NCBI RefSeq assembly: GCF_003019035.1
Contig: NZ_CP027447.1
Reading direction: 5' to 3' (one strand)
Origin: Escherichia coli
GTDB lineage: Bacteria > Pseudomonadota > Gammaproteobacteria > Enterobacterales > Enterobacteriaceae
DNA length: 64,000 bases
Positions 59,001 through 62,000 of the stretch are shown piece after piece. The first letter of the stretch is position 1. The number at the start of each line of letters is the position of its first letter. The position numbers were made by a program.

Positions 59001-62000
59001 CCTCTGATTTTCCGCTATAATTTCTTAAAGAGTGCTCCATTCGGGGCACTCTTTTTTACATTCCCTCTACAGAACTTGCCCTTCTCTCACAGAAAATGAA
59101 TAAATAAAAATGCGATACCGCCAGATTCGCGTTCGGTGTGACTATGGTTGTATCCGGTGAGTACAGCTTTGATCCAAAGGCTGGCTTCTGTGATGATTAA
59201 CCAGCCTCAGGGTATTGATGACACCACCGTTCATAACAGATCGGCATTACTTTGCATACGTACTGCTTCATATTCTCGCCAAAACACTTTTTAATGCCTT
59301 TGCGAATTCATCCAGACTTATATTGTCAATTTTTTGCCCAACGACGACTGACTCCGAAACATCGGCCATTGCTGGCCATCGCGTTTTGTAATCAGCATAA
59401 ATTGCAACAACGGGGGTATTATAGGCACTTGCCATATGTAATATTGAGGTGTCAGGAGTTATTGCGATATAAGCATCTTTTATGATTGCTGCTGAACGTT
59501 TAATCGAGGGTGATAAGGATAAACGGTAGACATTATTATAACAATCCACTAACACCCTGGCTTTTTCTTCCCCTTTTGGTCCATGAACGATCACTATTGG
59601 TATATCTGTTTCACTTTGAATTTTTTCTATTAGATTTTCTGCAATCGATAATGAAAATGTACGTTCCTGCGAGCTACCTTCTAAATTAAGCGCAATGTAA
59701 GATCCTAACGATCGCATTTCCTCGCGCACCTCATCGAGTACATCCTTACTTAGTGGCAATTCATATATTGGCCTGACTGCTGGAAAACCCGCCTCACGCA
59801 TCATAAATGCCCATGTCATGGGCACAGGAGCCCGGAGATTCTGATCCATCCGGGACGCGCTCTTACACAAAGGGGAATAGCACTTCATGGTTAAACCAAC
59901 AACCTGAAAATTCGTTTTTGCTTTCAACTGACTGATAAATATCATCGTTTTCAGGTTCTTTTTACGCATCGCCTCTATACAAAGATCCGGCGTACCGTAT
60001 TGCTGTGTTATGTTCTTCGCTAAATCTTTTATTTCTTTTAATGTTGCGTGATCCTGCATAGTCATTGTGACTAATGTTAATTTAGTCTGTTCAAGTTTGA
60101 GCGCATTAAAGACTTCTAAATTAATTGTCGACGTAACAATTAAAAGATGCTTAATTTTATGCAATTCAAGCGCCCGAATAACTGGAAAGATGGCCATAGC
60201 ATTGCCAATCTGATCGGGAATATGGATAACAACAAACTCTGTTTTTTCAATATTGAAATTAAAAGCTTTATAATCGTAGTAACTAAATGCAATACGTCTC
60301 AACAATGATGCTAAAAACATAACTAACCCCGCTTCCCTACTGGTTATAATGCAATGCAGTTTATCAGACTCATCAGGGCGCAATTTTGTGCATATGCGGA
60401 CTTTTATGTTTCATATCTCGAATCTGTGGATCCTCTGCTTAATCCTTAAACAACACCAGAAACTCCTGCGCTTTCATCTTCCATCGAATTTTTCATGTTG
60501 CCGTTAATCAGCCATAAAATCATTTGCAGATGCGCTCTGTCGAGGTAGTCTCATAAGGTTCGTTTATAGATCGACGGCAATGTGAGTTACCTTTTCCATA
60601 CTAATTATAAAAAGACAGTACAAACAGGATCATTATGGACTCCACGCTCATCTCCACTCGTCCCGATGAAGGGACGCTTTCGTTAAGTCGCGCCCGACGA
60701 GCTGCGTTAGGCAGTTTCGCTGGTGCCGTCGTCGACTGGTATGATTTTTTACTCTATGGCATTACCGCCGCTCTGGTGTTTAATCGCGAGTTTTTCCCGC
60801 AAGTAAGCCCGGCTATGGGAACGCTCGCTGCATTTGCCACCTTTGGTGTCGGATTCCTGTTCCGTCCGCTCGGCGGTGTCATTTTCGGTCACTTTGGCGA
60901 CCGACTGGGACGTAAGCGCATGTTAATGCTGACCGTCTGGATGATGGGCATCGCGACAGCCTTAATTGGTATTCTTCCTTCATTCTCGACCATTGGGTGG
61001 TGGGCCCCCATTTTACTGGTGACGCTGCGTGCCATTCAGGGATTTGCCGTCGGCGGCGAATGGGGAGGCGCGGCGTTACTTTCCGTTGAAAGTGCACCGA
61101 AAAATAAAAAAGCTTTTTACAGTAGCGGTGTACAAGTTGGCTACGGAGTAGGTTTACTGCTTTCGACCGGACTGGTTTCATTGATCAGTATGATGACGAC
61201 TGACGAACAGTTTTTAAGCTGGGGCTGGCGCATTCCTTTCCTGTTTAGCATCGTACTGGTACTGGGGGCATTGTGGGTGCGTAATGGCATGGAGGAGTCC
61301 GCGGAATTCGAACAACAGCAACATAATCAAGCGGCCGCGAAAAAACGCATTCCGGTTATCGAAGCACTATTACGGCATCCCGGTGCTTTCCTGAAGATTA
61401 TTGCGCTACGACTGTGCGAGTTGCTGACGATGTACATCGTTACCGCCTTCGCACTTAATTATTCAACCCAGAATATGGGGTTACCGCGCGAACTTTTCCT
61501 CAATATTGGTTTGCTGGTAGGTGGATTAAGCTGCCTGACAATTCCCTGTTTTGCCTGGCTTGCCGATCGTTTTGGTCGCCGCAGAGTTTATATCACAGGT
61601 GCGTTAATCGGAACGTTGAGCGCATTTCCTTTCTTTATGGCGCTTGAAGCACAATCTATTTTCTGGATAGTTTTCTTCTCCATAATGCTGGCAAACATTG
61701 CGCATGACATGGTGGTGTGTGTGCAACAACCGATGTTTACCGAAATGTTTGGTGCCAGTTATCGCTATAGTGGCGCTGGAGTCGGATATCAGGTTGCCAG
61801 TGTGGTTGGCGGTGGATTTACACCTTTCATTGCCGCTGCACTTATCACTTACTTTGCCGGGAACTGGCATAGCGTCGCTATTTATTTGCTGGCTGGATGC
61901 CTGATTTCCGCAATGACCGCTTTGTTGATGAAAGACAATCAACGCGCTTAATAGCCTGGCAAAGATCATCCGATCTTCGCCTTACACTTTTGTTTCACAT

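What the first reader, a model, noticed from the sequence alone, without database searches (positions are those of the whole stretch)
59268..60383. yeeL glycosyltransferase appears intact here
Seen: an uninterrupted 371-aa GT9-like ORF between yeeJ and shiA. From memory yeeL is a disrupted pseudogene in K-12, so this strain may retain the ancestral functional gene, possibly acting with the neighbouring adhesin.
Basis: partly seen in the sequence, partly recalled or inferred. Interest (0 to 1): 0.25.

Follow-up and report, generated by a model that had tools for sequence, protein, structure and literature searches.

The report
Intact yeeL gene, catalytic residue mutated
The uninterrupted yeeL sugar-transferase gene is real but ordinary: about 60% of sampled E. 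coli genomes have it intact, it shows no link to the neighbouring adhesin, and this strain's copy carries a rare change at the residue the enzyme family needs for catalysis.

Summary
The ORF is real: minus strand, 59268-60383, 371 aa from a TTG. The true start is most likely the ATG at 60320, giving 350 aa. It is the orthologue of K-12 yeeL (b4497). That pseudogene is colinear with no indels and is broken only by CAA->TAA at codon 235.

An intact yeeL is not special. In an even sample of complete E. coli genomes, 17 of 29 resolved cases were intact. The K-12 stop occurs in 769 of 5426 genomes. Other strains lose the gene through another stop, a frameshift, IS1 insertions at a hot spot, or deletions.

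Nothing ties it to yeeJ. The genes are convergent. Homologues in other genera have no adhesin neighbour. B2 strains keep yeeL beside a decayed yeeJ. YeeJ also works in K-12, which lacks YeeL.

This allele has Asn40 where every other relative examined has Asp. That position aligns with the catalytic base Asp13 of WaaC. Only 2 of 5426 genomes share the change. The "intact" gene here probably encodes a crippled enzyme.

Already known; low interest.

The parts
59268..60320 (-). yeeL coding sequence: 350 aa, ATG at 60320, stop codon at 59268-59270. It encodes a GT9-family, GT-B fold glycosyltransferase. GC content is 38.7% against about 50% for the neighbouring genes.
   Evidence: ORF. RefSeq annotation of the identical SCU-301 and E7-1N7 gene WP_096987174.1. 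Alignment A1. Pfam hit. AF2 model and fold searches. GC content.
60321..60383 (-). 21-codon upstream extension from a TTG that makes the '371 aa' ORF. It is probably untranslated 5' region.
   Evidence: Homologues and RefSeq start at the downstream Met. K-12 has TGG instead of TTG at this position.
60201..60203 (-). Codon 40, AAT (Asn). Every other relative examined has GAT/Asp here. It is the position of the GT9 'G-D' motif and aligns with WaaC Asp13, the catalytic base.
   Evidence: hhalign places YeeL 29-345 on WaaC 2-318. G39 and D40 are conserved in 41/41 distant relatives. 22 other E. coli alleles have GAT. An allele-specific 33-mer is found in 2 of 5426 genomes. Asp13 is described as the catalytic base from mutagenesis (bioRxiv 10.1101/2021.06.16.448588).
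59616..59618 (-). Codon 235, CAA (Gln) here. K-12 and 768 other complete genomes have TAA, the lesion that makes K-12 yeeL a pseudogene.
59436..59453 (-). Codons 290-295, D-T-S-I-L-H. This is the GT9 donor (nucleotide-sugar) binding motif and aligns with WaaC D261-T262-G263..H266. It is intact in this allele.
   Evidence: hhalign. Column counts: D 92/97, T 93/97, H 97/97.
59661..59663 (-). Codon 220, CGT (Arg). It aligns with WaaC Lys192, the donor phosphate ligand. It is intact in this allele.
   Evidence: Column counts: R 71, K 12 of 97.
59529..59538 (.). Site that is an IS1 insertion hot spot inside yeeL in other strains. It is not occupied in this window.
   Evidence: Target duplications map to 59529-59537 in LZYWN_4 and 59531-59538 in Ecol_743 and DA33135.
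59027..59054 (+). Terminator-like hairpin with a 12-bp stem, just after the yeeJ stop codon, in the gap between the convergent yeeJ and yeeL genes.
51025..59007 (+). yeeJ, the long variant (2660 aa) of the inverse autotransporter adhesin. It is a convergent neighbour and not functionally tied to yeeL by any test done here.
60635..61951 (+). shiA shikimate transporter, the divergent neighbour. The yeeL-shiA pairing is also present in Pseudocitrobacter.

Best explanation
The ORF is the E. coli yeeL gene, a stand-alone ('orphan') member of glycosyltransferase family 9. This is the GT-B fold family of ADP-heptose-dependent LPS heptosyltransferases.

In its normal form the enzyme would bind a nucleotide sugar, most likely ADP-heptose, in its C-terminal domain using R220 and the D290-T-S..H295 motif. 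Asp40 in the N-terminal domain would act as the general base that activates a hydroxyl on the acceptor. The acceptor is probably an anionic envelope glycan such as LPS core. Donor, acceptor and mechanism are inferred, not shown.

An open reading frame is the common and ancestral state of this gene. K-12 and about 14% of complete genomes carry a Q235 stop. Other lineages have lost the gene independently.

The window strain keeps the frame open but has a recent, rare G->A change that turns Asp40 into Asn. Its product is therefore most likely folded but catalytically dead or strongly impaired. It is a hidden loss of function, not a retained function.

The gene is not a partner of the adjacent adhesin gene yeeJ.
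For: Identity and K-12 lesion.

GT9 membership:
- Pfam score above cut-off.
- hhalign against a WaaC/F/U/Q profile gives 95% probability, E 2e-8, over 282 columns.
- The AF2 model has pLDDT 86.

Commonness of the intact state:
- 5343 of 5426 genomes carry the locus.
- In the even-step sample H1-H40, 17 were intact, 3 point-disrupted, 5 had IS1, 4 were truncated or absent, and 11 were not examined.
- The K-12 stop allele is in 769 of 5426 genomes.

The family is under constraint:
- 65% mean column identity across genera.
- dN/dS is 0.20 within E. coli.

D40N:
- The position aligns with WaaC D13.
- An independent NCBIfam HepII model aligns a relative from its residue 34 to model position 2, which gives the same register.
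- G-D is conserved in 41/41 distant relatives and 19/19 family members.
- D40 is present in 22 other E. coli alleles, including the two closest, which differ by only 4-5 nt.
- It is the only change in this allele at 100 positions invariant in the 17 homologues of <=73% identity in alignment A1.
- The allele is in 2 of 5426 complete genomes. It is real, because the exact protein is seen on 102 contigs.
- Asp13 of HepI is described as the catalytic base from mutagenesis and as strictly conserved.

No link to yeeJ.

Glycan acceptor: relatives of 36-39% identity in Halomonadaceae sit in surface-polysaccharide clusters with GT2, GT4, a second GT9 and Wzy_C/ligase-type genes.
Against: - No biochemistry exists for any YeeL protein. 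Donor and acceptor are inferred from family membership only.
- The D40-D13 equivalence rests on profile alignment and a predicted structure. No residue-level structural superposition was available.
- Asp->Asn at a general base can leave residual activity in some glycosyltransferases.
- The N40 allele has persisted on at least 102 contigs without further lesions, which is also what a still-useful gene would look like.
- Expression is unknown. The promoter scan was uninformative.
- The intact fraction comes from 29 resolved genomes, not a census.
Confidence: 0.65

Rival explanations
1. The allele is fully or largely functional despite Asn40. In this view the enzyme still modifies an envelope glycan in this strain, through residual activity, another residue such as the family-conserved Asp36 acting as base, or substrate-assisted catalysis.
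For: The ORF, donor motif and R220 are intact. The allele has persisted on 102 contigs with no second lesion. Asp36 is invariant in the close family.
Against: Asp40 is conserved in 41/41 distant relatives, 19/19 close relatives and 22/22 other E. coli alleles. Asp36 is Asp in only 20 of 41 distant relatives. The aligned HepI Asp13 is described as the catalytic base from mutagenesis.
Confidence: 0.2
2. YeeL would be a retained ancestral enzyme that glycosylates the neighbouring inverse autotransporter adhesin YeeJ, as TibC and Aah heptosylate TibA and AIDA-I.
Against: - The genes are convergent with a terminator-like hairpin between them, not an operon.
- Six homologue contexts in other taxa lack any adhesin. 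Pseudocitrobacter has mtfA-yeeL-shiA without yeeJ, so yeeJ looks like a later insertion next to asnT (PMC5595812).
- yeeL is intact beside yeeJ remnants in 6 B2-type genomes.
- YeeJ is displayed and active in MG1655, where yeeL is a pseudogene.
- The fold is much closer to WaaC and WaaF than to TibC.
- This strain's allele lacks the catalytic Asp.
Confidence: 0.05
3. yeeL is a silent, horizontally acquired relic in E. coli as a whole. It would be not meaningfully expressed and drifting toward loss everywhere, so intact and broken alleles would be phenotypically equivalent.
For: GC content is low, 38.7% against about 50% in the flanks. Disruption is recurrent and independent: stops at codons 235 and 60, a frameshift, two IS1 events and deletions. 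No promoter-like site lies upstream. No literature on its function was found.
Against: dN/dS of 0.20 within E. coli means non-synonymous changes are still removed. About 100 columns are invariant across genera at 52-73% identity. Roughly 60% of genomes keep the full frame.
Confidence: 0.1

Closest known systems
E. coli K-12 MG1655 yeeL (b4497), annotated pseudogene
   Same: Orthologous gene in the same yeeJ-yeeL-shiA slot. Both are 1053 nt and colinear without indels. They differ at 38 nt.
   Different: K-12 has TAA at codon 235 where the window has CAA. K-12 keeps Asp40 where the window has Asn40.
RefSeq WP_096987174.1, 'glycosyltransferase family 9 protein' (E. coli SCU-301 and E7-1N7)
   Same: 100% identical protein and DNA in the same context. 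The window matches SCU-301 over 17 kb except for one base.
   Different: Nothing differs in yeeL. The window has a 1-nt shorter C-run in amn.
LPS heptosyltransferases WaaC (HepI; PDB 2GT1, 2H1H, 6DFE) and WaaF (HepII; 1PSW), CAZy GT9
   Different: - Sequence identity is only 12-15%.
- NCBIfam equivalog scores are far below the cut-offs, for example 39 against 185.
- YeeL has an extra N-terminal helix (residues 2-13) ahead of the first Rossmann strand at residue 29.
- It has a family-specific, poorly modelled segment at 146-159.
- It lies outside the waa cluster.
- The acceptor is unknown.
- This allele has Asn at the Asp13 position.
Autotransporter heptosyltransferases TibC/Aah (BAHT family; PDB 4RAP)
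   Same: GT-B heptosyltransferase-like fold. The gene lies next to an adhesin gene.

Membership tests
Glycosyltransferase family 9 (Pfam PF01075 / CAZy GT9) | Sequence match to the family model above the curated cut-off | tested here: met
   PF01075 scores 31.5 bits against a cut-off of 22, over the C-terminal half only. A profile-profile match to WaaC/F/U/Q gives 95% probability, E 2e-8, over 282 columns.
Glycosyltransferase family 9 (Pfam PF01075 / CAZy GT9) | GT-B two-Rossmann-domain fold, closest to solved GT9 structures | tested here: met
Glycosyltransferase family 9 (Pfam PF01075 / CAZy GT9) | C-terminal donor-binding residues: Lys/Arg aligned with WaaC K192, and D-T-[GS]-x-x-H aligned with WaaC D261..H266 | tested here: met
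   R220, D290, T291, S292 and H295 are present. Column counts are R/K 83/97, D 92/97, T 93/97 and H 97/97.
Glycosyltransferase family 9 (Pfam PF01075 / CAZy GT9) | N-terminal Gly-Asp motif supplying the catalytic base (WaaC Asp13) | tested here: not met
   The YeeL family has it: G39-D40 in 19/19 close relatives, 41/41 distant relatives and 22 other E. coli alleles. The window allele has G39-N40. The gene therefore belongs to the family by descent, but this allele lacks a feature needed for activity.
Glycosyltransferase family 9 (Pfam PF01075 / CAZy GT9) | Transfers heptose from ADP-L-glycero-D-manno-heptose | not testable with these tools
   This needs an enzyme assay. Some GT9 members are thought to use other donors (from general knowledge).
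LPS core heptosyltransferases I/II/III (WaaC, WaaF, WaaQ equivalogs) | Score above the NCBIfam equivalog cut-off | tested here: not met
   TIGR02193 scores 39 against 185.3. TIGR02195 scores 19.8 against 134.6. TIGR02201 scores 17.2 against 170.2. The RfaC, RfaF and RfaQ models score 12-15 against 437-569.
LPS core heptosyltransferases I/II/III (WaaC, WaaF, WaaQ equivalogs) | Encoded in the waa (rfa) core-biosynthesis cluster | tested here: not met
   The gene lies between yeeJ and shiA. The K-12 waa cluster is at 3.79-3.81 Mb. Relatives in Halomonadaceae do sit in polysaccharide clusters.
Bacterial autotransporter heptosyltransferases (TibC/Aah) | Closest structural relatives are TibC-type enzymes | tested here: not met
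Bacterial autotransporter heptosyltransferases (TibC/Aah) | Gene co-oriented and co-transcribed with its adhesin substrate (aah-aidA and tibC-tibA arrangement, from general knowledge), with conserved co-occurrence | tested here: not met
   The genes are convergent with a hairpin between them. Six other genomic contexts have no adhesin neighbour. yeeL is intact next to decayed yeeJ.
Bacterial autotransporter heptosyltransferases (TibC/Aah) | Adhesin function or modification depends on the transferase | tested here: not met
   This rests on literature only. MG1655 YeeJ is surface-located and promotes biofilm although MG1655 yeeL is a pseudogene, and no glycosylation is reported (PMC5595812).

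The most novel reading that the evidence does not exclude
YeeL may define an uncharacterised orphan branch of GT9. It is present in Escherichia, Pseudocitrobacter, Erwinia and Rosenbergiella, with relatives inside polysaccharide clusters in Halomonadaceae. In this reading it adds an accessory sugar to LPS core or another envelope glycan. Its repeated independent inactivation in E. coli would then be adaptive loss of a surface modification, for example to escape a phage or immune recognition, and not neutral decay. The observed lesions are two different stops, a frameshift, two IS1 insertions 2 bp apart, deletions, and the catalytic D40N seen here.
Probability: 0.12. Interest if true: 0.45.

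Novelty: already known. Interest (0 to 1): 0.13.

Why it matters
The practical value is small. K-12 is a poor reference for this locus, because the gene is open in most E. coli. An uninterrupted reading frame is not proof of function. In this strain a single G->A change removes the residue that the whole enzyme family uses for catalysis. Anyone wanting to find out what YeeL does should use an Asp40 allele, for example from O157:H7 or ST131, not this strain or K-12. The adhesin-glycosylation idea can be given low priority.

Tried and rejected
- A sequence search of the PDB with YeeL found nothing at E<1. Fold search was needed instead.
- Literature searches for 'yeeL' returned mostly author names. 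With 'yeeJ' added, none of the six titles or abstracts concerned yeeL function; the papers were not opened.
- hhalign against single WaaC or WaaF sequences aligned only the C-terminal domain. A four-sequence GT9 profile was needed to reach the N-terminal motif.
- The promoter scan gave fewer sites than shuffled sequence and none upstream of yeeL, so it was uninformative.
- Rfam found no RNA family in 58800-60800.
- I considered a conserved link to an MFS transporter. yeeL is divergent from shiA in E. coli and Pseudocitrobacter, and lies downstream of an MFS gene in Erwinia and Rosenbergiella. I rejected the link because those MFS proteins are not shiA orthologues and are not related to each other beyond chance.
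- I considered that N40 might be a sequencing error. I rejected this because two independent complete genomes and 102 contigs carry the same protein.
- The 371-aa TTG start was rejected in favour of the ATG at 60320.

Full report
**Observation.** The window has an uninterrupted ORF on the minus strand at 59268..60383, 371 aa from a TTG. It lies between yeeJ (+ strand, ending at 59007) and shiA (+ strand, 60635..61951).
- The gene is on the minus strand. It is convergent with yeeJ and divergent from shiA.
- The real start is almost certainly the ATG at 60320, giving 350 aa. RefSeq annotates the 100%-identical gene of strain SCU-301 from that ATG. All 19 aligned homologues start there. K-12 has TGG where the window has the TTG.

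**Comparison with K-12.** MG1655 yeeL (b4497) is annotated as a pseudogene of the same length, 1053 nt. The two sequences align without any gap and differ at 38 positions. The only disabling difference is TAA in K-12 against CAA in the window at codon 235, window 59616-59618.

**How unusual an intact yeeL is.** It is not unusual.
- The 1.64-kb region is present in 5343 of 5426 complete E. coli genomes.
- I inspected the 40 hits that the search listed at even steps down its ranking.
  - 17 have an unflagged 1053-nt CDS that I re-translated.
  - 3 have point lesions. Two carry the stop at codon 235, one of them with a frameshift as well, and one carries a stop at codon 60.
  - 5 carry IS1 inside the gene.
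  - 4 are truncated or missing.
  - 11 were not examined.
- That gives 17 of 29 resolved, roughly 60% intact.
- An allele-specific 33-mer shows the K-12 TAA in 769 of 5426 genomes. These include isolates from chicken, pig, human and lettuce as well as laboratory strains.
- The protein cluster containing the intact 350-aa form has 10,923 distinct member sequences, named 'glycosyltransferase family 9 protein' by NCBI.

**What the protein is.**
- Pfam GT9 is passed, but only over the C-terminal half.
- The NCBIfam equivalogs for WaaC, WaaF and WaaQ are missed by a wide margin.
- A profile of 20 family members aligns with a profile of K-12 WaaC/F/U/Q over 282 columns at 95% probability and E 2e-8. 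YeeL 29-345 falls on WaaC 2-318.
- The AlphaFold model is confident, with pLDDT 86 and pTM 0.83, and shows two Rossmann-like domains.
- The donor-side residues are conserved. R220 aligns with WaaC K192, and D290-T-S-I-L-H295 aligns with WaaC D261..H266.
- An exhaustive profile search found 1788 relatives at E<1e-3 but only 34 at E<1e-30. YeeL is therefore a small, distinct branch of GT9.

**Constraint on the family.** Mean column identity across genera is 65%, with about 100 invariant positions. Within E. coli, dN/dS averages 0.20 over 19 alleles, two of which are pseudogene alleles. The gene has 38.7% GC in a region of about 50% GC.

**Link to the adhesin.** I found no support for one.
- The genes are convergent and separated by a 12-bp-stem terminator-like hairpin.
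- Homologues elsewhere are single genes in unrelated contexts, and none has an adhesin neighbour:
  - In Pseudocitrobacter the gene sits between mtfA and a 90%-identical shiA, the same slot without yeeJ.
  - In Erwinia and Rosenbergiella it sits behind unrelated MFS genes.
  - In E. albertii it sits between tonB and yciA.
  - In a 73% variant it sits between hchA and mtfA.
  - In another lineage it sits between maeB and eut.
- yeeJ lies next to asnT, a known integration site (PMC5595812). It therefore looks like a later arrival beside yeeL.
- In B2/ST131-type genomes yeeJ is a 2.1-kb frameshifted remnant while yeeL is intact.
- YeeJ from MG1655 is surface-exposed and promotes biofilm although MG1655 has no functional yeeL. 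The paper does not mention glycosylation.
- One weak counter-signal exists. B2-type alleles carry H246Y, and some carry T221I and R275H, at positions invariant in the 17 homologues of <=73% identity in alignment A1.

**Likely acceptor.** This is inference. Relatives of 36-39% identity in Carnimonas, Halomonas and Halotalea lie inside clusters with GT2, GT4, a second GT9, Wzy_C/ligase-type, WecG and Bac_transf genes. The YeeL N-terminal domain carries many invariant basic residues: R119, K124, R163, R175, and the nearly invariant K120, K121 and R157. These fit an anionic glycan acceptor such as LPS core better than a protein.

**The catalytic residue.** This is the one thing that is special about this allele.
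- Residue 40 is Asn (AAT, window 60201-60203).
- In the profile alignment it falls on WaaC Asp13, within the motif 'M-G-D-V' in WaaC against 'I-G-N-A' here.
- The curated HepII model independently aligns a family member in the same register.
- Asp13 of HepI is described as the catalytic base implicated by mutagenesis and strictly conserved (bioRxiv 10.1101/2021.06.16.448588).
- Gly39-Asp40 is present in 41 of 41 distant GT9 relatives that align over this region, in all 19 other family members and in all 22 other E. coli alleles I extracted.
- Among 100 positions invariant in those same 17 homologues, D40N is the only change in the window allele.
- The two closest alleles differ by only 4-5 nt and have GAT, so the change is recent.
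- An allele-specific 33-mer finds it in 2 of 5426 complete genomes, SCU-301 and E7-1N7.
- The exact protein is on 102 contigs in the wider collection, so it is a real lineage marker and not an error.
- My reading, at about 65% confidence, is that this 'intact' gene encodes an inactive or strongly impaired enzyme. It would be one more route of loss alongside the stops, IS1 insertions and deletions seen elsewhere.

**Verdict.** The K-12 pseudogene status and the ancestral intactness hold. The claims of special retention, of function in this strain and of co-operation with the adhesin do not. The gene is already annotated in thousands of genomes, so this is an already known feature of low interest. 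The useful caveat is that an open frame hides a probable catalytic knockout.

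Noticed in passing
window 62245-62262 (C-run at 62249-62253), inside amn: The window matches SCU-301 over 17 kb except for one missing C in a homopolymer: C5 here against C6 in SCU-301 and K-12. 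This splits amn (AMP nucleosidase) into two ORFs, 61897..62448 and 62358..63506. It could be a real frameshift or a homopolymer sequencing error. Strain 167 also has amn flagged as frameshifted.
   Followed up: partly
window 59529-59538 (site equivalent); loci L038, L039, L040: IS1 sits inside yeeL at almost the same place in unrelated backgrounds, in the same orientation. The target duplications are 2 bp apart, so there were at least two independent insertions into an AT-rich hot spot. 5 of the 40 evenly sampled genomes carry such an insertion.
   Followed up: partly
L007 10001-11059 (also L008, L009): Some Escherichia-labelled contigs carry a 73%-identical second version of the gene between hchA and mtfA. 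In these contigs nothing lies between mtfA and shiA. This is a different insertion point for the same family one gene away.
   Followed up: no
L025, L026, L030, L031, L032 (B2-type yeeL alleles): ORF-intact alleles in genomes with a decayed yeeJ carry H246Y. Two also carry T221I, next to the donor-binding R220, and R275H. All three positions are invariant in the 17 homologues of <=73% identity in alignment A1, so other 'intact' alleles may also be impaired.
   Followed up: no
window 51025-59007 (yeeJ) and about 47000-50100 upstream: yeeJ here is the long variant, 2660 aa against 2339 aa in K-12. In the matching SCU-301 record it is preceded by an RHS element core protein gene and two small hypothetical genes, instead of directly following asnT as in K-12.
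   Followed up: no
L041 (E. coli XJ5.2), 1748-4229: In this strain an integrase gene next to asnT plus an IS1 replace yeeJ and most of yeeL. Only the first 210 nt of yeeL remain.
   Followed up: no
window yeeL residues 114, 147, 152 and the segment 146-159: The family has invariant Cys114 and Cys147 and nearly invariant Cys152, around a conserved segment (C-Y-S-P-x-C-K-x-A-S-R-M-D-Q) that AlphaFold models with pLDDT below 50. This could be a metal site or an acceptor-binding loop specific to this branch of GT9.
   Followed up: no
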